DNA of 64,000 nt from the NCBI GenBank assembly GCA_016288655.1, contig JAEEKX010000045.1:980-64979 (forward strand), given 5' to 3'. This document shows positions 1 through 30,151 of the stretch, in pieces. A program made the translations under genes and the position numbers. How positions within the stretch are numbered: position 1 is the stretch's first letter; each line of letters starts with the position of its first letter. The notes under the pieces were generated by a model that worked only from the letters and a program-made list of their open reading frames with translations, did not search any database and was not told where the DNA came from. This DNA is from Bacteroidales bacterium (GTDB lineage: Bacteria; Bacteroidota; Bacteroidia; Bacteroidales; WCHB1-69).

Positions 1-1044
1 GTTGAATTGGCAAAGTATATCAATGCTTACCAGGAAGTTGTAGGCGGATACAGCAAAATAATCATTGGACCAAATTCAGTGGTACGAGGCAACGAAAAGA
101 ACTACGCAAAATTCATCAACAACAATTTACCCGATGAAAAGAAAATCAACAATGTCTATTTTGAAGATGCTGTTGCCAAAGCCATTCTTTTCAAGACGGC
201 TGAAAAACGTTATGGAACCAAAAAGAATGACTATTGCATTGGTGAACTACGTCAAGTGGCTGTGCCATATACAATTTCGCTAATCAGTTATCTTACAGAC
301 AACAAACTTGATTTGTATAAAATCTGGAAAAACCAATGCCTTTCAGAAGCGTTGTCGGATTTTATCTATGATTTGATGAAACAAGTCAATGCATTTATCA
401 TTGACAATTCGCCAATTACTCATTATATCGAGTGGGCGAAGAAAGACGAGTGTTGGGAGTTAGTTAAACAACATAATTGGAACTTCAATATCGAAGAAAT
501 CAAATCCGATTTGATTGATGAGAACAATCCACCAAAACGAAAAATCCTCACTGATGAGGGTGACTCTGAAGAGGAAGAAAAACACAAAGAAGAATTGTTA
601 CGAAGCATTCCTTTTGCTTTGTGGAAAAAGATCGGCGAGTGGGGCAAAGACGCAGGTTTCTTCGACCCCTCAAAACAAGGTTGGGCAAGCGATGTGGCTT
701 TTATTGTAAAGAATAACCGTCCATTTAGCAGCCGAGATAAAAACCATGCAATGTTTCTGTTTGAAATGGTGTTAAAACATAATCAAGAACTATTAGAAGA
801 AGCCGATACCATTACCGAATTTGAAAGTCAAGGTCCTGATCTTTTCGCAAATTCATCATCTGAAGAAATAACACTTGACCTGATTCAACGTATGGTTGAT
901 TGGGACAGAAGAAAACGTATTCTTGAAGATTGGAAATGGAAAGTAATGAACGATGTCGTTCAAGGCCGAAAGCCTCTTACCGACCGAATGAAATACGCAT
1001 TCTATCTCAACTTGGAAAAGTTGAAGAAAAATGGATTTGAATAA
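1..1044 (+). CDS. AIPR-like abortive-infection protein, C-terminal part (5' end lies outside the window)
   Basis: Frame 1 is open from base 1, and the track start at 7 is only an in-frame TTG. Codon usage is AT-rich, unlike the rest of the window. The N-terminal segment 'AKYINAY...IIGPNSVVRGNEKNYAKF' resembles the segment I recall from AIPR (PF10592) proteins. The family call is from memory only. Confidence 0.45.
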   Translation, partial: VELAKYINAYQEVVGGYSKIIIGPNSVVRGNEKNYAKFINNNLPDEKKINNVYFEDAVAKAILFKTAEKRYGTKKNDYCIGELRQVAVPYTISLISYLTDNKLDLYKIWKNQCLSEALSDFIYDLMKQVNAFIIDNSPITHYIEWAKKDECWELVKQHNWNFNIEEIKSDLIDENNPPKRKILTDEGDSEEEEKHKEELLRSIPFALWKKIGEWGKDAGFFDPSKQGWASDVAFIVKNNRPFSSRDKNHAMFLFEMVLKHNQELLEEADTITEFESQGPDLFANSSSEEITLDLIQRMVDWDRRKRILEDWKWKVMNDVVQGRKPLTDRMKYAFYLNLEKLKKNGFE

Positions 1045-1108
1045 TAATCCCCCTACGCCCCGCACCCCCTATATCCCCTTTCCCCTCACATTAAACACAC
1101 AACCCCTT

Positions 1109-1342
1109 ATGCCCCCCTCTCGCATCATCGGTATCGGAGAAACCGTATTCGACATTCTCTTCAAAAACAATCAGCCGCAGAAGGCCGTACCGGGCGGCTC
1201 AACGTTCAACAGCATCGTCTCGCTGGGACGGGCAGGCATGAACTGTGCCATGGCGCAACGCTGGAGTCAGGATGTCTGCCAACAATTAGGCAATAACATC
1301 AGCGATGAGCTGGTGGCAAAACTTCAAAATGAACGGATATGA
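1109..1342 (+). pseudogene. PfkB-family sugar kinase remnant, copy A (N-terminal ~45 aa joined in frame to the C-terminal ~30 aa)
   Basis: 'RIIGIGETVFDILF...AVPGGSTFNSIVSLGRAG' is a PfkB N-terminal signature. It runs directly into the C-terminal tail 'AMAQRWSQDVCQQL...LQNERI'. At 77 aa it is far shorter than the ~300 aa expected for a kinase. Confidence 0.7.
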
Positions 1343-1596
1343 AACACCTCCTCTACAAAACCCAAGGCACCTGCTCGCAGTTCATCGATGTGACCGTTGA
1401 TGACAACGGCGTCATCCAGCAGGTCTCGTTTTATGGCGGATGCGACGGAAACCTCCAAGGCATCTGCCGATTAGTCGTCGGTCAGAAAATCGACGACGTC
1501 ATCCCGAAACTCAACGGCATCCGCTGCGGAGGCAAACCCACCTCCTGTCCCGACCAGCTCTGCCGCGCGCTGGAAGAATTGAAAAGAAATTCATAG
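1339..1596 (+). CDS. TSCPD-domain small protein (TIGR03905-like), copy A
   Basis: 85 aa with 'GTCS...GGCDGNLQ...CGGKPTSCPDQL' Cys motifs. Its start overlaps the kinase remnant's stop in an ATGA. Confidence 0.75.
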   Translation: MKHLLYKTQGTCSQFIDVTVDDNGVIQQVSFYGGCDGNLQGICRLVVGQKIDDVIPKLNGIRCGGKPTSCPDQLCRALEELKRNS

Positions 1597-1640
1597 ACAT
1601 ATTTATAGTTTGTCCATCCCAATATTTTGAAAATAATATG

Positions 1641-1648
1641 TATTTTTG
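1641..1648 (+). promoter_or_regulatory. Bacteroidota sigma-A -7 box (TAnnTTTG)
   Basis: TATTTTTG lies 81 nt upstream of the ATG at 1729. Confidence 0.45.
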
Positions 1649-1728
1649 CTGGTGATTTATTAGTTGCGGAAAGTGAGCTTGAGATTGAATTAACAAGTTG
1701 ATTAGATAATTGATAATGAGAATCATTT

Positions 1729-3186
1729 ATGGAAGGAAACTATGACATACTTGTCAAGGAGCTCTGCAAATTGCCTAAAGAAACTGGTTGGGTGGAGTTT
1801 AAGCATAATAATGATGACCCTAAAATGATAGGGGAGGATGTTTGTGCCCTTGCAAATACTGCAACATTGAAAGACCATGACTTCGCCTATATGATTTGGG
1901 GTGTCGATGATGCCACGCACGATATTATAGGAACGTCTGTTAGGCTTGTGCAACTGAAGAAAGGGCAAGAAGATATTGAAAACTGGCTGCGACACCAGTT
2001 GTCGAGGAATGCAAATTTTGAATTTTTGGAAGCAGAAACAGACGGCAAACATATCGAAATAATCAGGGTTCACAAAGCATTGCATATTCCCGTCGCTTTT
2101 GAAAAAACCGAATACATACGCAGTGGGAGCTATACTAAGAAATTGAACGACTATCCCGAATTAATGGCTCAACTTTGGGATAAGTTACGCAACAGCCGAT
2201 TTGAAGACGTATGTCCTATTAAAGATTTGAGGTATGCCGAAGTGTTACAAATGATTGATGCCGGAGCCTATTTTTCTATGCTGAATATTCCCCATCCAAC
2301 CGAGGAAAATGAAGTGATGCACTATCTTGTGGAAGATGGCATTGTCGTCAAACTAGACAATGGACTTTTTGGCATTACCAATTTAGGAGCCATATTGTTT
2401 GCCAAAGACCTGAACAACTTTCCCAGATTGGGACGTAAAGCCATGCGTGTGGTTCAATATCAAGGGAAAAACAGGTTGATAATTCAAAAAGAAGAGACTT
2501 TTAAAACGGGCTATGCTATCTGCTTCGAAGATATTGTAAGATATGTCACCGCCCTTTTGCCAAGTAACGAAGATGTTACCGCTGTAGCGCTGACTACAAA
2601 AAGCAAATATCCTCTTCCATCCGTGAGAGAAGCTATTGCCAATAGTTTAATCCACCAAGATTTGTATATAACTGGTGCTGGTCCTGTAGTGGAGGTCTTT
2701 GAAAATCGGATAGAAGTAACCAATCCCGGCACACCATTGGTGGACATAATGCGAATTATCGACAATCCCCCCAAGTCAAGAAATGAGAAATTGGCATCCC
2801 TAATGCGTCGAATGAAGATGTGCGAGGAGTTGGGACGCGGATGGGACAGAATGGTTATTGCTTGCGAAATGCAGTTTCTTCCAGCACCAAGAATTGAAAT
2901 TTTCGAGGAATCGACAAAAGTTACTTTGTTCTCTGAAATGGAGTACAAAAACATTCCCGCTGATGACAAGTTGTGGTCGTGTTATCTTCATTCTTGTCTG
3001 ATGTTTGTTCAAGGTGATGCTTTAACTAACACCTCTTTGCGTGATAGGTTTGGACTTAAAGAATCATCGGCCGGCAGTGTTTCAAGGCTTATTAAAGAAG
3101 CTGTCGAAACACATAGAATAAAGCCCATTGATCCCAATACAGCTAAAAGATATATGCGATATGTTCCTGTATGGGCGTCTGTTTAA
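1729..3186 (+). CDS. Schlafen/AlbA_2 (divergent AAA) + HATPase_c_4 + C-terminal wHTH-like protein ('RecG-like putative DNA-binding/ATP-binding protein')
   Basis: 485 aa. The N-terminus 'ETGWVEFKHN...IGEDVCALANT...YMIWGVDD' matches AlbA_2. The central 'REAIANSLIHQDLYITGAGPVVEVFENRIEVTNPG' matches HATPase_c_4. The gene is AT-rich. Confidence 0.7.
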   Translation: MEGNYDILVKELCKLPKETGWVEFKHNNDDPKMIGEDVCALANTATLKDHDFAYMIWGVDDATHDIIGTSVRLVQLKKGQEDIENWLRHQLSRNANFEFLEAETDGKHIEIIRVHKALHIPVAFEKTEYIRSGSYTKKLNDYPELMAQLWDKLRNSRFEDVCPIKDLRYAEVLQMIDAGAYFSMLNIPHPTEENEVMHYLVEDGIVVKLDNGLFGITNLGAILFAKDLNNFPRLGRKAMRVVQYQGKNRLIIQKEETFKTGYAICFEDIVRYVTALLPSNEDVTAVALTTKSKYPLPSVREAIANSLIHQDLYITGAGPVVEVFENRIEVTNPGTPLVDIMRIIDNPPKSRNEKLASLMRRMKMCEELGRGWDRMVIACEMQFLPAPRIEIFEESTKVTLFSEMEYKNIPADDKLWSCYLHSCLMFVQGDALTNTSLRDRFGLKESSAGSVSRLIKEAVETHRIKPIDPNTAKRYMRYVPVWASV

Positions 3187-3205
3187 TTTGCTGGTAATTT
3201 GCCAA
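3184..3205 (+). repeat. 22-bp direct repeat, copy 1 (TAATTTGCTGGTAATTTGCCAA)
   Basis: Identical to 3273-3294. It is itself built from two TAATTTGC half-units and overlaps the stop codon of the 1729-3186 gene. Confidence 0.9.
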
Positions 3206-3272
3206 GATGAATAATAGGATGTGTGTGTTGTGTTATAAAATATTGATAACCAGCATTATATAAATCACAATC

Positions 3273-3294
3273 TAATTTGCTGGTAATTTGCCAA
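3273..3294 (+). repeat. 22-bp direct repeat, copy 2
   Basis: Exact copy of 3184-3205, located 89 bp downstream. Confidence 0.9.
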
Positions 3295-3416
3295 TGAGAA
3301 AAAAGTAATAGGTGCTCTCCAGATGCTCGCAATAGATCGATGTGATGGATATTTGGTAGGCGAAGTTGGAAAAACGGACGAAACACACATAACCCAATGA
3401 TTAACAACTATTTAAA

Positions 3417-3815
3417 ATGAACCCCTCTCGCATCATCGGTATCGGAGAAACTGTATTTGACATCCTCTTCAAGAACAATCAGCCACAAAAGGCAGTGCCG
3501 GGCAGCTCAACATTCAACAGCATCGTCTCGCTGGACGGCAAGTTGCCCGAGATGAGCAAAGACGATGTGGTGCTGTTCGGGTCGTTCTTCGCCATCAATC
3601 CGGCCATCCGTCCTGTGGTGGGCGGCTTGCTGCGGAAGGCGCATGAGGCAGGCGACAACTTCAATGCGGGTTATATTTATGCAAAGATGCAAGGCATCGA
3701 CGACCAAGCCCGGCGCATCGCCATGGCGCAACGCTGGAGTCAGGATGTCTGCCAACAATTAGTCAATAACATCAGCGATGAGCTGGTGGCAACACTTCAA
3801 AATGAACGGATATGA
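3417..3815 (+). pseudogene. PfkB-family sugar kinase remnant, copy B (three in-frame fragments)
   Basis: It has the same N-terminus as copy A. This is followed by a mid-gene piece ('DVVLFGSFFAINP...') and the 'DNFNAGYIY' part of the PfkB signature-2 region, then the same C-terminal tail. It is only 132 aa. Confidence 0.7.
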
Positions 3816-4063
3816 AACACACTCTCTACAAAACCCAAGGTACTTGCTCGCAGTTTATCGACATTACCGTCGATGACAACGGCGTCATCCAGCAGGTCTT
3901 CTTCATGGGCGGATGCGACGGAAACCTCCAAGGTATCTGCCGCCTAATCACTGGCCAGAAAATCGACGACGTCATCCCAAAACTCAACGGCATCCGCTGC
4001 GGCGGCAAACCCACCTCCTGTCCCGACCAGCTCTGCCGCGCACTGGAACAACTGAAAAAATAG
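3812..4063 (+). CDS. TSCPD-domain small protein (TIGR03905-like), copy B
   Basis: 83 aa. By my count 75 of 83 aligned residues are identical to copy A. It has the same ATGA coupling to the upstream remnant. Confidence 0.75.
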   Translation: MKHTLYKTQGTCSQFIDITVDDNGVIQQVFFMGGCDGNLQGICRLITGQKIDDVIPKLNGIRCGGKPTSCPDQLCRALEQLKK

Positions 4064-4068
4064 CCACT

Positions 4069-4224
4069 ATGTCCCTCCTCCGTGTCCTTTTAGCCATCAT
4101 CTTCCCGCCCCTCGCCGTCATCGACCGCGGGTGCGGGTCGGTGCTTATTGTATTCCTCCTCACCTGCGCCGGATGGGCGCCGGGCGTCATCGCCGCACTC
4201 GTCATCCTCAACAAGAACGAATAA
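4069..4224 (+). CDS. YqaE/Pmp3-family small membrane proteolipid
   Basis: 51 aa, 'MSLLRVLLAIIFPPLAV...GWAPGVIAALVIL'. It has two hydrophobic helices, and this is the first ATG inside the longer track ORF. Confidence 0.7.
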   Translation: MSLLRVLLAIIFPPLAVIDRGCGSVLIVFLLTCAGWAPGVIAALVILNKNE

Positions 4225-4226
4225 GT

Positions 4227-4706
4227 ATGAAAACCATTGCCGTTTCCGCCGCCATCATCCTCGACCCGCAGGGACGCATCTTCGCCACCCAGCGCGGGTA
4301 CGGCCCGTGGAAGGACTGGTGGGAGTTCCCCGGCGGCAAGATCGAGCCCGGCGAAACTCCCGAAGATGCCCTCATCCGCGAGATCCGCGAGGAACTGGCA
4401 GTTCACATCGAGATCGATGGCTTCGACCGAACCGTGGAATGGGACTACCCCGACTTCCACCTCGTCCTCCACTGCTTCTTCTGCCACATCACCGAAGGCA
4501 GCCCCAACCTCCTTGAGCACGAAGCCGCACGCTGGCTCGCCCCCGACGAACTCGCCTCCGTGCAGTGGCTCCCCGCCGACAAGGAACTCGTTGAGGAACT
4601 GCAAAATGAATCCTACAAACTTCCTTCAGCAGCCCCGAAGGAGCAAGACGGAAACAACCCCATACCAACGCAGCGCAGTATGGGGGGAAAGCCCTCCATC
4701 CCATGA
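4227..4706 (+). CDS. Nudix hydrolase, MutT/NudG-like (deoxy)nucleoside-triphosphate pyrophosphohydrolase
   Basis: The Nudix box 'GGKIEPGETPEDALIREIREELAV' is present, with 'MKTIAVSAAIILD' as a plausible start. The track ORF's N-terminal extension overlaps the previous gene. Confidence 0.8.
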   Translation: MKTIAVSAAIILDPQGRIFATQRGYGPWKDWWEFPGGKIEPGETPEDALIREIREELAVHIEIDGFDRTVEWDYPDFHLVLHCFFCHITEGSPNLLEHEAARWLAPDELASVQWLPADKELVEELQNESYKLPSAAPKEQDGNNPIPTQRSMGGKPSIP

Positions 4707-5248
4707 CCGACACTCTCACCCCCTCCCAACGCCATACCGTCATGTCGCACATCCGCAGCCGCAATACCCAGCCCGAACTGCTGGTGCGGCGCTGGCTGTG
4801 GCACCACGGCTACCGCTACCGACTCAACGTGAAGGGCGTGCCCGGTAAACCCGATATCGTGATGCGCAAGTACCGCACCGCCATCTTCGTCAACGGCTGC
4901 TTCTGGCACGGCCACGAAGGGTGTGGCAAGTTCAGGATGCCGCAATCCAACGTCGCGTTCTGGAAGAGCAAAATCACCCGCAACCGCGAACGCGACCGGA
5001 AGAACTACCAACTGCTGCAGGACAACGGCTGGCAGGTGCTCGTGGTGTGGGAGTGCCAACTGCATCCCAAGTTGTTGGAAAACACGATGTTGCAAGTGGA
5101 GGTGCAACTCCAGAACTATTTCCTCCAAACGTTCGGCCCGAAGTCCGTGAAATACATCCACCTTCCCGCAGAGGATGACACTCCCATGGCCGCTGAATCC
5201 GCTGAAGAGTACGAAACGACATCCAATTCCAAAGGTCAGTGCCGATAG
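4703..5248 (+). CDS. vsr: Very-short-patch repair endonuclease
   Basis: 'SRNTQPELLVRRWLW..GYRYR...GKPDIV....AIFVNGCFWHGH' is the Vsr signature. The start overlaps the Nudix stop in an ATGA. Confidence 0.85.
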   Translation: MTDTLTPSQRHTVMSHIRSRNTQPELLVRRWLWHHGYRYRLNVKGVPGKPDIVMRKYRTAIFVNGCFWHGHEGCGKFRMPQSNVAFWKSKITRNRERDRKNYQLLQDNGWQVLVVWECQLHPKLLENTMLQVEVQLQNYFLQTFGPKSVKYIHLPAEDDTPMAAESAEEYETTSNSKGQCR

Positions 5249-5311
5249 TCCCAATTTGATCCCAACGTTGAGGATCGGTTCCTTTGTTCCTTGAATTTGT
5301 AAAATTTGTAG

Positions 5312-5319
5312 TATCTTTG
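5312..5319 (+). promoter_or_regulatory. Bacteroidota sigma-A -7 box (TAnnTTTG)
   Basis: TATCTTTG lies 141 nt upstream of the ATG at 5460, which implies a long leader. Confidence 0.4.
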
Positions 5320-5459
5320 CCGCGGCTTCGGCCTGATGAAAAACATCAACCACGAAAAATGAAAGAGTCGCACCAGCCGATCCGGCAAGATCGTGGATAA
5401 ATATGTGGAAATGAATGCCGTGAGAATATAGCAGAAGATATTCACTGAAAAATCAATAT

Positions 5460-6506
5460 ATGATGAAAGAAAAATATATGAAAAGAAACCGTTGGATGAA
5501 GGCCCTCTGTTTCGCCGCCGTCCTGCTGCTGGCCGTTGTGGTCGTCGCCATGCAGAGCGACGCCTGTCCTGCGCCGCACAACCTCCAGTCCGACGCCCTG
5601 CAAAAGGGTCACCGCGACACCGTGCGCTTCGTCGGCGACACGATGATCGTCTGTACTGAACTCCTCGGCAAGAAGATCCAAGGCTATGCCGGCACCGTGC
5701 CGCTTGACGTCTATCTCCTCCACGGCAAGGTTGTCAAGGTGGTGGCTCTGCCCAACAACGAGACGCCAAGCTTCTTCCAAAGCGCCGCCGCCATTCTCGG
5801 CAGTTGGAACGGACTGACGCCGAAGCAGGCCCTCGCCAAAAAGGTCGATGCCGTCAGCGGCGCCACATTCTCCTCCAGGGCTATCGTCGGCAACGTGAAG
5901 GCCGCCCTCGAGTATGCCTCCACCGTCGATGAGAAGGCCCTGCGCGCGAAGGCCGGCAACGGCACTGCGCAGGCCACCCCGCAGTCGGCCGGCTTCCACC
6001 CCATCGACGTGATGAAGCCCGGCGCCCTGCAGGCCGGCTTCCCCTTCTTCACCGACGACGACGGCCACGGACTGCTGCTCTGCAGCGGCGATGTCCAGGC
6101 CCACAACGCGATGACCATCGGCTGGGGCGGCCTCGGCACCCTGTGGAGCCGTCCCACCGTCACCGTCTATGTCGCTCAGGCGCGCTACACCCACCAGTTC
6201 ATGGACAAGTACGCGTACTTCACCGTGATGCACTTCCCCGACAACCGCGTGGTCGATTATATGGGGTCGCACTCGGGCCGCGACGGCGACAAGGCGCAGG
6301 CGCTGGGATTGCACACACTCTACACTGAGAACGGCACGCCCTACTACGCCGAGGCCGACCTGGTGATCGAGTGCCGCACGATGTACGGCCAGGACTTCGA
6401 CCCCGCTCAATTCCGCACCGACGCGCCCCGCAACTTCTATGCACGCTCTAGTTCCGGCGTCCACACGATGTACATGGGCGAGGTGGTAAGCGCGTGGCAG
6501 AAGTGA
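5460..6506 (+). CDS. Exported FMN-binding domain protein fused to a flavin-reductase-like domain
   Basis: It has an N-terminal signal/anchor ('ALCFAAVLLLAVVVVA') and an FMN_bind motif 'DAVSGATFSS'. The C-terminal half carries 'NAMTIGWGGLGTLW...YFTV', typical of flavin reductase/flavoredoxin-like domains. Confidence 0.7.
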   Translation: MMKEKYMKRNRWMKALCFAAVLLLAVVVVAMQSDACPAPHNLQSDALQKGHRDTVRFVGDTMIVCTELLGKKIQGYAGTVPLDVYLLHGKVVKVVALPNNETPSFFQSAAAILGSWNGLTPKQALAKKVDAVSGATFSSRAIVGNVKAALEYASTVDEKALRAKAGNGTAQATPQSAGFHPIDVMKPGALQAGFPFFTDDDGHGLLLCSGDVQAHNAMTIGWGGLGTLWSRPTVTVYVAQARYTHQFMDKYAYFTVMHFPDNRVVDYMGSHSGRDGDKAQALGLHTLYTENGTPYYAEADLVIECRTMYGQDFDPAQFRTDAPRNFYARSSSGVHTMYMGEVVSAWQK

Positions 6507-6515
6507 TCGCAGGGG

Positions 6516-7400
6516 ATGAACTATCTTGAAAAAAAGTATGATGTCGCCATCTGGCGGGATGTGGGCTACGCGCAGAAGCCGGGCTACTACTGCTCGTATG
6601 CGCTGCCGAAGCCGAAGGTGAAGGCGGTGGCCGACAAACGACCGCGCCGACTGAAGGTCTCCCGCCTCAACTTGCGTCTCGACCTCTACGCCCCGCGCGA
6701 TGCGCAAGATGACTGCCGTCCCACCATCCTCTTCTTCCACGGCGGCGGCTTCTTCTTCGACGACAAGGAGAGCCACAGCATCGTGCGCCTCTGCCGGGCG
6801 TTCGCGGCGCGGGGGTACAACGCCGTGTCGGTCGATTACCGGCTGGGGTTCCAATACAACAAGAAGTCGATGCGGCGGGCGGAGGAGCGTGCCATCGCCG
6901 ATGGACTTTCTGCCCTGCGCTTCCTGTGCGACCACCGCGACGAGTACGGCATCGATCCACGGCGCATCATCTTGGCCGGATCGAGCGCCGGCGCAATGGT
7001 CGCATTGCAGATGCCCTACCGTCCGTTGCCGGCAGGGGTGGAGGTGTGCGCCGTTGTCAATCTCTGGGGCGCCATCCCCGACCTCGCCCTCCTGCGACAG
7101 CGCCCTGACCTAGCCATTATCTCCTTCCATGGCGGCAAGGACTACGTCGTTCCTCCCGGCTACGGCAGCAACTACCACCGCTACTTCGGCCCGCTGTCGC
7201 TGCTGCTCTGCCGTAAAAAGTACGGTTCTGTCCGCATCCACCAGGAAGCCAAGCGGTTGAAAATGCACGAGCGGCTCTTTTTCTTCCCCAAACTCGGTCA
7301 CAAATTGTATTGGGACAGGAAGCGGCAGGCCGAGAACGCCTACTTCGACCTCATCGATGCCCGCATGACGGAGTTTCTCGCGGATGTGGTCCGTCGATAA
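6516..7400 (+). CDS. Alpha/beta hydrolase (HSL-type esterase/lipase family)
   Basis: The oxyanion motif 'FFHGGGF' and the nucleophile elbow 'GSSAG' are both present. Confidence 0.75.
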   Translation: MNYLEKKYDVAIWRDVGYAQKPGYYCSYALPKPKVKAVADKRPRRLKVSRLNLRLDLYAPRDAQDDCRPTILFFHGGGFFFDDKESHSIVRLCRAFAARGYNAVSVDYRLGFQYNKKSMRRAEERAIADGLSALRFLCDHRDEYGIDPRRIILAGSSAGAMVALQMPYRPLPAGVEVCAVVNLWGAIPDLALLRQRPDLAIISFHGGKDYVVPPGYGSNYHRYFGPLSLLLCRKKYGSVRIHQEAKRLKMHERLFFFPKLGHKLYWDRKRQAENAYFDLIDARMTEFLADVVRR

Positions 7401-7436
7401 TGACGAAAATCATCATTTTTATCAATTTTCGTCATT
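7399..7436. repeat. Perfect 12-bp inverted repeat (AATGACGAAAAT / ATTTTCGTCATT) with a 14-nt spacer
   Basis: The arms are at 7399-7410 and 7425-7436. The repeat starts inside the esterase stop codon, and no U-tract follows it. Confidence 0.85.
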
Positions 7437-7685
7437 ATCTCCCGTTTCATGGCGGTGGATTGTCATGGGAACCGACGCCCGTGGGTGGAATCGCCTCCCG
7501 CCGAACATGCATAATTCCCCGTCAACTCACCAAATTTTTTAGCGAAAATCATTTCATCTTTCCATAATAATTATGTATAATTGCAATGCGATTTTGTATT
7601 TTATAATACATTGATTGTCAAATAATTATGAATTTCTATAGGTAAAATTCTCCTATGGAATTTGAACAGGATAAAGAAGATAGAA

Positions 7686-30077: not shown

Positions 30078-30151
30078 GGTCCCATAGCTCAGTTGGTTAG
30101 AGCAGCTGACTCATAATCAGCGGGTCCTTGGTTCGAGCCCGAGTGGGACCA
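30078..30151 (+). tRNA. tRNA with CAT anticodon (elongator tRNA-Met; lysidine-modified tRNA-Ile2 is not excluded)
   Basis: I folded the cloverleaf by hand. The acceptor is GGTCCCA/TGGGACC, the D arm GCTC/GAGC, the anticodon stem GCTGA/TCAGC with loop CTCATAA, and the T arm CTTGG-TTCGAGC-CCGAG. There is no encoded CCA. It lacks the three G-C pairs of an initiator anticodon stem. Confidence 0.85.

What the first reader, a model, noticed from the sequence alone, without database searches (positions are those of the whole stretch)
1..4063. Two AT-rich islets separated and followed by diverged direct copies of a decayed pfkB'-TSCPD module
The layout is [AIPR-like ORF, 1-1044] - [kinase remnant + TSCPD, 1109-1596] - [Schlafen/AlbA_2 ORF and flanks, 1597-3416] - [kinase remnant + TSCPD, 3417-4063] - core genes. 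Both AT-rich blocks contrast sharply with the GC-rich flanks, while the two remnant modules have host-like composition. The two modules are similar but not identical. By my count 75 of 83 TSCPD residues match, and there are only 2 substitutions in each shared kinase end. The kinase remnants carry different internal deletions, so neither copy derives from the other. This pattern fits successive islands landing at the same locus, each bringing or duplicating target sequence, or recombination between divergent alleles. The cargo is of the defence-island type. The window probably shows only the right end of a larger element.
Basis: partly seen in the sequence, partly recalled or inferred. Interest (0 to 1): 0.62.

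Follow-up and report, generated by a model that had tools for sequence, protein, structure and literature searches.

The report
Defence-gene hotspot with duplicated anchor genes
In an uncultured rumen Bacteroidales genome, two phage-defence inserts sit beside two diverged copies of a broken sugar-kinase gene and a small conserved gene, and the inner insert was swapped very recently with another genome by ordinary homologous recombination, so this is a clear but unexceptional defence-gene hotspot.

Summary
Window 1109-1596 and 3417-4063 are diverged direct copies (about 90% nt) of a pfkB-TSCPD module. Both kinase parts are in-frame deletion derivatives of a 300-aa PfkB kinase. Both AT-rich blocks (37-39% GC against about 56%) carry defence-type genes.

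- **Left block:** it is the 3' end of an Mza anti-phage system (MzaC/D/E are visible on a contig that extends the window).
- **Right block:** it is a 1.7-kb cassette with one Schlafen/AlbA_2-HATPase_c_4 gene. Window 1577-3626 (2,050 nt) matches another genomic background without a single mismatch. The flanking TSCPD and pfkB sequences there are only about 88-90% identical. A sister contig of that background has the empty site, TSCPD-37 nt-pfkB.
- **Mechanism:** the cassette therefore moves by homologous recombination, with crossovers inside the anchor genes. No integrase, att-like repeat, tRNA target, phage or plasmid vehicle was found.
- **Relatives:** they share a scaffold of [C5-methylase defence system]-(pfkB)-TSCPD-Pmp3-NUDIX-Vsr, with small inserts in several slots. 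Two other lineages show similar duplications or footprints.

How the duplication arose is inferred, not shown. I read this as a new member of a known kind, a core-gene-flanked defence hotspot, of moderate interest.

The parts
1..1044 (+). C-terminal 347 aa of MzaE (AIPR protein), the last gene of an Mza anti-phage system. AT-rich (GC 0.375) and cut by the window edge.
   Evidence: Pfam AIPR 7.5e-17 on the part in the window. Full 780-aa protein on L003: AIPR_N + AIPR, PADLOC MzaE 1.3e-86, NCBIfam MzaE 376 bits, below the equivalog cutoff of 1050. L003 adds MzaD (DUF4420) and the MzaC C-terminus to the left.
1045..1108 (.). C-rich spacer. The last ~22 nt are homologous to the native pfkB upstream region of L087.
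   Evidence: Homology of the Mza cassettes in L166, L169 and L170 to L003 ends at the AIPR stop codon. L087 185-352 aligns to window 1087-1253.
1109..1342 (+). pfkB remnant A (77 aa): codons 1-48 fused in frame to codons 271-300 by a 669-nt deletion with ~7 nt microhomology. Its stop overlaps the TSCPD start (ATGA).
   Evidence: The 5' part is 97.4% identical to the L086/L002 pfkB allele.
1339..1596 (+). TSCPD_A, an intact 85-aa 4-Cys TSCPD protein.
   Evidence: Pfam 5.8e-30. Against copy B: dN/dS 0.17, dS 0.40.
1577..3626 (.). 2,050-nt tract with 0 mismatches to L001, a different genomic background. It runs from the last 20 nt of TSCPD_A through the Schlafen cassette into pfkB remnant B, including that remnant's first deletion junction.
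   Evidence: mismatch positions stop at 1576 and resume at 3627. The flanking TSCPD and pfkB 3' sequences are about 88-90% identical.
1650..3333 (.). Schlafen cassette as delimited by the empty site in L086. About 1.7 kb, AT-rich.
   Evidence: L086 1-8880 equals L002 1042-9921, and L086 8918 onward equals L002 11673 onward; 1,751 nt in L002 replace 37 nt in L086. Homology of L086 to the window stops at 1649 and resumes at 3334.
1729..3186 (+). 485-aa Schlafen/AlbA_2 + HATPase_c_4 protein, a candidate defence or regulatory gene.
   Evidence: Pfam. PADLOC PDC-S50 3e-10, N-terminal domain only. No PDB relative by sequence. The exact protein is found in two genomic backgrounds.
3178..3304 (+). 127-nt intergenic element with two copies of TTTGCTGGTAATTTGCC 89 nt apart (3187-3203, 3276-3292).
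   Evidence: (D6). The element recurs at 82-84% identity upstream of DUF2357/PDDEXK_7 genes in L006 and L143.
3368..3379 (+). GGAAAAACGGAC motif about 40 nt upstream of pfkB remnant B; it marks the pfkB upstream region.
   Evidence: It is found upstream of pfkB in L086, L001 and L002 (2 copies, 33-nt period), upstream of the operon containing pfkB in L012 (3 copies), and in the L087 footprint.
3417..3815 (+). pfkB remnant B (132 aa) with two in-frame deletions (210 nt shared with L001, and 294 nt; 5 and 11 nt microhomology). Its stop overlaps the TSCPD start.
   Evidence: Its 3' 92 nt differ from copy A at only 2 positions, against 42 of 367 elsewhere in the repeat (Fisher p = 0.005).
3812..4063 (+). 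TSCPD_B, an intact 83-aa TSCPD protein.
   Evidence: Pfam 9e-31, NCBIfam TIGR03905.
4069..5248 (+). Right-hand scaffold: Pmp3 (4069-4224), NUDIX MutT/NudG-like (4227-4706) and Vsr (4703-5248).
   Evidence: The same genes, in varying order and with inserts between them, occur in L007, L008, L143, L169, L170 and L095.

Best explanation
This is the right-hand part of a recombination-driven defence hotspot in an uncultured rumen Bacteroidales lineage. Small chromosomal genes (pfkB, TSCPD, then Pmp3, NUDIX, Vsr) serve as homology anchors, and defence cargo sits in the slots between and upstream of them. Slot 1, left of module A, holds an Mza system (C5-methyltransferase, HATPase, Z1, DUF4420, AIPR). 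Its methylase is functionally matched by the Vsr gene downstream; that link is an inference. Slot 2, between TSCPD_A and pfkB_B, holds a 1.7-kb single-gene Schlafen/AlbA_2-HATPase_c_4 cassette. Cargo moves between genomes by RecA-type homologous recombination with crossovers inside the anchors, not by a dedicated recombinase. This is shown for slot 2. The tandem pfkB-TSCPD / pfkB-TSCPD arrangement most likely arose earlier, by recombination between lineages that carry the anchors in different order or as divergent alleles. That could be Campbell-type integration of a circle carrying anchor plus cargo, or a donor fragment bridging sister chromosomes; both are inferences. The redundant kinase copies then decayed through microhomology-mediated deletions. 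All three deletions kept the reading frame, possibly because the TSCPD start is translationally coupled to the kinase stop (ATGA overlap); this is a weak inference.
For: Duplication and decay. Recent transfer by homologous recombination: window 1577-3626 is identical to L001 over 2,050 nt, while the adjacent TSCPD (about 27 mismatches in 227 nt) and the pfkB 3' part (88%) are diverged. L002 carries the same cassette, but its identity tract ends at 3315 and it keeps the native intact pfkB, so the right-hand crossover differs. L086 is the same background (99.7-99.97%) without the cassette. L001 imported the kinase allele with the 70-aa deletion together with the cassette, which points to a window-like donor. 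No recombinase: gene tables and Pfam for L001-L003, L166-L170, L006-L008, L011, L012 and L143 show no integrase or transposase. There are no tRNAs near the locus, and no phage-contig or plasmid match. Hotspot scaffold: C5-methylase-containing systems lie directly upstream of pfkB or TSCPD in L001, L006, L143, L169 and L170, and L007 has a PLD-helicase restriction-like gene in that position. Fic, AAA_14/DUF4143, ATPase_2 and RhuM inserts lie between Pmp3, NUDIX and Vsr. Recurrence of anchor duplication: L155 and L153 have two full pfkB copies (979 nt, 93%) flanking a YhcG/DUF1016 nuclease. L087 has an intact pfkB, a 22-nt TSCPD stub, the pfkB upstream motif and a fully deleted pfkB in front of TSCPD. 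Divergence arose under selection: TSCPD A against B has dN/dS 0.17 and dS 0.40. The repeat itself is mosaic. TSCPD is an ordinary chromosomal gene elsewhere in Bacteroidales, commonly downstream of YebC.
Against: The event that created the duplication is not observed. No strain of the window's own lineage with a single module or an empty slot 2 was found. The left end of the island is unknown because L003 ends inside MzaC, so an integrase further left cannot be excluded. Piece-by-piece similarities do not follow a simple donor/recipient pattern: TSCPD_B is closer to L086's TSCPD than TSCPD_A is. L086 shows no remnants of outer copies, so its TSCPD->pfkB order may be an independent arrangement. 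The in-frame pattern has p of about 0.04 by chance, and the L087 deletion does not follow it. That L001/L002/L086 belong to a different species from the window rests only on the different flanks, the lower flank GC (about 0.50 against 0.56) and the 88-93% anchor identity. No shared housekeeping gene could be compared.
Confidence: 0.6

Rival explanations
1. An old in-situ tandem duplication of pfkB-TSCPD in a common ancestor was followed by slow divergence, later cargo insertion and lineage-specific decay. Horizontal transfer played no part in making the duplication.
For: A footprint of the same tandem exists without cargo in L087. The TSCPD->pfkB order in L086 fits loss of the outer copies. 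Slot 2 pre-existed the Schlafen cassette.
Against: dS of 0.40 with dN/dS of 0.17 between the TSCPD copies, and mostly synonymous differences in the kinase ends (12 nt but only 2 aa changes in the 5' end), indicate divergence while the genes were functional, probably in separate lineages. Long direct repeats in one genome tend to be homogenised or deleted. Positional copies are not each other's closest relatives across lineages. L086 shows no remnants of outer copies.
Confidence: 0.25
2. Successive integrase-mediated genomic islands inserted at a pfkB/TSCPD att site, each carrying a replacement copy of the target.
For: The architecture superficially resembles tandem island accretion. L087 has a 33-nt direct repeat at the pfkB/TSCPD junction. 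The left end of the island has not been seen.
Against: No integrase in any of the related loci. The repeats are 490-650 nt long and include a whole gene. The identity tract ends inside genes, at different places in L001 and L002. The empty site shows no target duplication. There is no tRNA, and no phage or plasmid counterpart.
Confidence: 0.1
3. Metagenome assembly artefact: contigs of two species mis-joined at shared repeats.
For: Short contigs break at the repeats (L172, L173, L175). All data come from metagenomes of the same study series.
Against: L003 spans the whole structure and L004 spans both cassette junctions at 100% identity, and they are listed under different samples. L001, L002 and L086 come from three assemblies.
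Confidence: 0.03

Closest known systems
Core-gene-flanked defence hotspots (cDHS in Pseudomonas aeruginosa, PMC10250203; E. coli defence-island hotspots, PMC10121019)
   Same: Variable defence cargo sits at a fixed chromosomal position bounded by conserved genes. Many occupants arrive without their own mobility genes. Different systems occupy the same slot in related genomes.
   Different: Here the anchors are themselves duplicated, partly decayed and reshuffled in order (pfkB, TSCPD, Pmp3, NUDIX, Vsr). There are several small slots in a row. The host is an uncultured rumen Bacteroidales lineage.
Minimal mobile elements and recombination-driven gene-content variation in Neisseria (PMC3787668)
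   Same: A cassette lies between two conserved genes and is exchanged by homologous recombination in the flanks. An empty site exists in the population, and there is no recombinase.
   Different: Natural transformation is not known for these Bacteroidales, so the vehicle is unknown. The transfer seems to cross lineages whose anchors are only about 90% identical.
Transformation-generated merodiploids in Streptococcus pneumoniae (PMC3784515)
   Same: It offers a way to obtain a tandem duplication with an insert: a donor fragment pairs with two different repeats on sister chromosomes.
   Different: This is a mechanistic analogy only and was not tested here. The simple prediction that the outer copies are identical is met for the pfkB 3' ends (2 of 92 mismatches) but not for TSCPD (30 of 249).
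Mza anti-phage system (PADLOC mza; NCBIfam MzaA-E models)
   Same: The left islet ends with MzaD-like and MzaE-like proteins preceded by an MzaC C-terminus. Relatives at about 90% nt carry the complete HTH-MzaA-B-C-D-E set.
   Different: NCBIfam scores are far below the equivalog cutoffs, so this is a diverged Bacteroidales branch. MzaA and MzaB are not visible for this genome.

Membership tests
Mza anti-phage system | AIPR-family MzaE | tested here: inconclusive
   PADLOC MzaE 1.3e-86 over nearly the full profile. NCBIfam MzaE 376 bits, against an equivalog cutoff of 1050.
Mza anti-phage system | PD-(D/E)XK MzaD (DUF4420) and Z1-domain MzaC directly upstream | tested here: met
   L003 165-1172 matches DUF4420 at 1.6e-83 and PADLOC MzaD at 1.2e-24. 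The ORF at L003 2-175 matches the C-terminus of the Z1 protein of L170 (PADLOC MzaC 2.5e-170).
Mza anti-phage system | MzaA methyltransferase and MzaB ATPase in the same operon | not testable with these tools
   Contig L003 ends inside MzaC. Both genes are present in relatives L166, L169 and L170, which is indirect evidence only.
Core-gene-flanked hotspot / minimal mobile element | Same flanks with different or no cargo in related genomes | tested here: met
   L086 is empty while L001 and L002 are filled. Cargo differs in L006, L007, L143, L169 and L170.
Core-gene-flanked hotspot / minimal mobile element | Transferred tract ends inside the flanking conserved genes | tested here: met
   The 100% tract 1577-3626 ends in TSCPD and pfkB. 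L002 has a different right end at 3315.
Core-gene-flanked hotspot / minimal mobile element | No dedicated recombinase in or beside the cassette | tested here: met
   None appears in the gene tables or Pfam scans. The left end of the window's own island is unseen.
Integrase-borne genomic island with att duplication | Tyrosine or serine recombinase at one end | tested here: not met
   Same calls as the row above. This is limited by the contig end on the left.
Integrase-borne genomic island with att duplication | Short identical att repeats at both boundaries, often in a tRNA or gene end | tested here: not met
   Filled and empty junctions show no target duplication. The only tRNA lies at 30078. 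The repeats are 118 + 300 nt at about 90% identity.
PfkB carbohydrate/nucleoside kinase | Full ~300-aa fold | tested here: not met
   Remnants of 77 and 132 aa give no Pfam PfkB hit. Residues 49-270 are deleted in A, and residues 37-106 and 148-245 in B.
TIGR03905 TSCPD 4-Cys protein | Score above the curated cutoff over the whole domain | tested here: met
   Copy B scores 105.5 bits against 67.7. Both copies hit Pfam TSCPD at about 1e-30.

The most novel reading that the evidence does not exclude
The duplicated, diverged anchor modules are not just scars. They would act as portable homology arms, making an integrase-free, self-propagating cassette system. Cargo flanked by direct anchor repeats would loop out as a circle carrying one anchor and re-enter any related genome by a single crossover. 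Each entry would create a new diverged anchor duplication, as seen here and in L155/L153. Selection would keep the decaying kinase ORF in frame so that the downstream TSCPD gene is still translated.
Probability: 0.2. Interest if true: 0.55.

Novelty: new member of a known kind. Interest (0 to 1): 0.35.

Why it matters
This locus gives a cleanly resolved example, from uncultured rumen Bacteroidales, of defence genes spreading without mobile-element machinery. There is an exact 2-kb tract shared between two genomic backgrounds, its empty site, and crossovers mapped inside the anchor genes. It also shows that such traffic has collateral costs: one recipient (L001) lost its kinase by importing a deleted allele together with the cassette. 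Finally, it leaves duplicated, decaying anchor genes that could be used as markers to find hotspots in metagenomes.

Tried and rejected
- **Leftward extension:** the exact-protein look-ups for the Schlafen protein, TSCPD_A and TSCPD_B gave only L003, which adds 2,467 nt. The DUF4420 homologue search returned relatives at 92-94% identity, not the same genome.
- **Single-module or empty allele in the window's own lineage:** none found.
- **Empty allele for the L155 duplication:** none among the fetched loci.
- **Remnants of outer module copies in L086:** alignment scores were no better than shuffled sequence.
- **pfkB directly upstream of TSCPD as a general gene pair:** not seen in the 80 species-representative loci, apart from L012, where the order is pfkB-NUDIX-TSCPD. 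The usual neighbours are YebC or GH20.
- **Phage or plasmid vehicle:** none.
- **Known RNA families in 1-5500:** none.
- **Solved structures related to the Schlafen protein or TSCPD:** none by sequence.
- **Integrase near TSCPD in L011 and L012:** none, despite a BT4734-like/PriCT_2 primase gene in L012.
- **Promoter and terminator scan of 900-4300:** nothing clearly above shuffled expectation.
- **L006 771-aa and L001 774-aa proteins:** I first thought they were homologous; they are not.
- **TSCPD_A as part of the recently transferred block:** I first read it that way. The fine-scale mismatch map showed that only its last 20 nt are.
Full report
**1. Observation**

The repeat finder and a pairwise alignment give two direct-repeat segments. 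They are 1109-1226 against 3417-3534 (118 nt, 90%) and 1247-1546 against 3720-4019 (300 nt, 91%). They are interrupted in copy B by extra kinase sequence.

Both small ORFs (1339-1596 and 3812-4063) are TSCPD proteins, with Pfam E-values of about 1e-30 and NCBIfam TIGR03905 above cutoff. They share 75 of 83 residues.

An intact 300-aa PfkB kinase was recovered from a related contig (L002 11723-12622, Pfam PfkB 7e-28). Aligned to it:
- Remnant A (77 aa) is residues 1-48 joined to 271-300.
- Remnant B (132 aa) is residues 1-36, 107-147 and 246-300.
- The deletions are 669, 210 and 294 nt. All are multiples of three, with 5-11 nt of microhomology at the junctions.

GC content is 0.375 for 1-1044, 0.537 for module A, 0.393 for 1597-3416 and 0.535 for module B, against 0.562 for the rest of the window.

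The structure is listed under several samples and assemblies. L003 covers all of it at 100% identity, and L004 covers 1255-3699 at 100%. L175, L172 and L173 are short contigs that carry the same proteins and break at the repeats. It is therefore not a chimera.

**2. The left AT-rich block**

Window 1-1041 is residues 434-780 of a 780-aa AIPR protein. L003 extends the window by 2,467 nt. It adds a DUF4420 PD-(D/E)XK protein and the C-terminus of a Z1-domain protein.

PADLOC assigns the AIPR and DUF4420 proteins of L003 to MzaE (1.3e-86) and MzaD, and the Z1 protein of the relative L170 to MzaC (2.5e-170). NCBIfam agrees for MzaD and MzaE, but with scores below its equivalog cutoffs.

Relatives at about 90% nt identity (L166/L167, L169, L170) carry the whole HTH-C5-methylase-HATPase_c_3-Z1-DUF4420-AIPR operon. 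In each of them, homology to L003 stops at the AIPR stop codon. What follows differs:
- L169: TSCPD-Pmp3-NUDIX.
- L170: Pmp3-RhuM-HAD-Vsr.
- L166: Fic-Pmp3.

No integrase flanks any of them.

**3. The right AT-rich block**

The 485-aa Schlafen/AlbA_2 + HATPase_c_4 protein occurs with exactly the same sequence on contigs of another background (L001, L002). There the gene order is two C5-methylases, NOV_C, a 1,035-aa restriction-like protein, a 774-aa protein, TSCPD, Schlafen, pfkB, then T9SS cargo genes.

A base-by-base comparison shows that window 1577-3626 (2,050 nt) is identical to L001. The adjacent TSCPD has about 27 mismatches in 227 nt. The kinase diverges after 3626 and is about 88% identical from the second deletion junction (3654) onward.

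L002 carries the same cassette, but identity ends at 3315 and it keeps its native intact kinase. L001 imported the kinase 5' part with the 70-aa deletion.

L086 is the same background as L001 and L002 (99.7-99.97% identity over about 18 kb), but it has 37 nt where L002 has 1,751 nt. This is the empty site, TSCPD-about 140 nt-pfkB. The junctions show no target duplication.

Together, these results show very recent transfer of the cassette by homologous recombination, with crossovers in the TSCPD 3' end and in or just before pfkB. A window-like lineage is the likely donor.

No related sequence was found on phage contigs or plasmids.

**4. The wider locus**

The 80 nearest TSCPD loci come from species-representative genomes, and the closest are from uncultured rumen Bacteroidales. 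Further pfkB loci came from metagenomes.

The close relatives share a fluid scaffold. A defence system sits directly upstream of (pfkB)-TSCPD-Pmp3-NUDIX-Vsr:
- It contains a C5-methylase in L001, L006, L143, L169 and L170.
- It is a PLD-helicase restriction-like gene in L007.

Single-gene inserts (Fic, AAA_14/DUF4143, ATPase_2, RhuM) lie between the scaffold genes.

L143 has the intact pfkB overlapping a single TSCPD, followed by Pmp3, an insert, NUDIX and Vsr.

In more distant Bacteroidales, TSCPD is an ordinary chromosomal gene that usually follows YebC or a GH20 gene.

**5. Origin of the duplication**

Two further observations show that anchor duplication recurs.
- L155 and L153 have two complete pfkB copies (979 nt, 93%) 3 kb apart. 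They flank a YhcG/DUF1016 nuclease gene.
- L087 has, in order, an intact pfkB, the first 22 nt of TSCPD, and about 190 nt that include the 33-nt-periodic GGAAAAACGGAC motif typical of the pfkB upstream region. A kinase start fused to a kinase end follows, and then an intact TSCPD. This is the same tandem with the opposite copies lost.

Slot 2 existed before the Schlafen cassette (L086). The cassette therefore did not create the duplication.

The two window copies are themselves mosaic. There are 12 of 118 mismatches in the kinase 5' end, 2 of 92 in the kinase 3' end and 30 of 249 in TSCPD (Fisher p = 0.005). Each piece has a different nearest relative among the other lineages.

The TSCPD copies differ mainly at synonymous sites (dN/dS 0.17, dS 0.40). 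The kinase ends also differ mostly synonymously. The divergence therefore predates the decay and probably accumulated in separate lineages.

I infer that the tandem arose by recombination between lineages carrying the anchors as divergent alleles or in different order. Two candidate mechanisms are Campbell-type entry of a circle and a donor fragment bridging sister chromosomes, as described for pneumococcal merodiploids (PMC3784515). The redundant kinase copies were then eroded. This step is not shown. An old in-situ duplication with later allele replacement remains a serious rival.

**6. Function**

- **Shown by homology:** the left block is the tail of an Mza-type system. The right block is a Schlafen-fold gene listed only as a defence candidate (PADLOC PDC-S50, 3e-10, N-terminal domain only).
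- **Inferred:** the Vsr gene, and possibly the NudG-like NUDIX gene, downstream serve the C5-methylases that repeatedly occupy this hotspot.
- **Weakly inferred:** all three deletions are in frame (chance about 1 in 27), and the kinase stop overlaps the TSCPD start. This suggests selection to keep TSCPD translated.

**7. Comparison and verdict**

The locus behaves like the core-gene-flanked defence hotspots described in Pseudomonas and E. coli (PMC10250203, PMC10121019) and like Neisseria minimal mobile elements (PMC3787668). It fails the tests for an integrase-borne island.

It is a new member of a known kind. The empty site, the exact transferred tract and the differently decayed tandems are unusually clear. 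Interest is moderate (0.35).

Noticed in passing
window 3178-3304; L006 7492-7621; L143 7504-7630: A 127-nt intergenic element with two copies of TTTGCTGGTAATTTGCC 89 nt apart follows the Schlafen gene. It recurs at 82-84% identity directly upstream of DUF2357/PDDEXK_7 (McrC-like) genes in two other islands. A related TTTGCTGGTGATTT lies at the cassette's left junction (about 1650). It could be an operator for the wHTH-bearing Schlafen protein or a cassette linker.
   Followed up: partly
window 3368-3379; L002 11642 and 11675; L087 1254 and 1287; L012 130-230: The motif GGAAAAACGGAC occurs in 1-3 copies at a 33-nt period upstream of pfkB, or of the operon containing it. It is probably a regulator-binding array. 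I used it here only as a marker of the pfkB upstream region.
   Followed up: partly
window 4227-5248; L007, L008, L143, L170: A MutT/NudG-like NUDIX gene and a Vsr gene stay linked to islands that carry C5-cytosine methylases. They may form a '5-methylcytosine damage-control' pair (repair of T:G mismatches and sanitising of modified dCTP). The association was not tested statistically.
   Followed up: no
window 3324-3345: A 22-nt stretch matches 19 of 22 bases of an internal TSCPD segment (1372-1393). It lies between the cassette and the pfkB upstream region. It may be a vestige of a further TSCPD copy or a chance match (rough estimate p about 0.01).
   Followed up: partly
L155 4501-5479 and 7548-8525; L153: In another rumen lineage, two full-length pfkB copies (93% identical) flank a YhcG/DUF1016 PD-(D/E)XK nuclease and a 242-aa unknown protein. 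This is an independent anchor duplication without TSCPD.
   Followed up: partly
L001 11689-12381 versus L002 11723-12625: Within one population, acquiring the cassette either spared the kinase (L002) or replaced its 5' part with a deleted allele (L001). Defence-gene import can therefore inactivate a neighbouring metabolic gene.
   Followed up: yes
L012 4128-5599: Directly downstream of TSCPD in this relative lie a UPF0102/NERD nuclease-like gene and a BT4734-like/PriCT_2 primase gene, a type often found on Bacteroidetes mobile elements. No integrase was found within the locus.
   Followed up: partly
window 7350-7650: A further AT-rich stretch (GC about 0.38-0.39) lies between the esterase gene and the choline-kinase-like gene. 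It appears to be intergenic.
   Followed up: no
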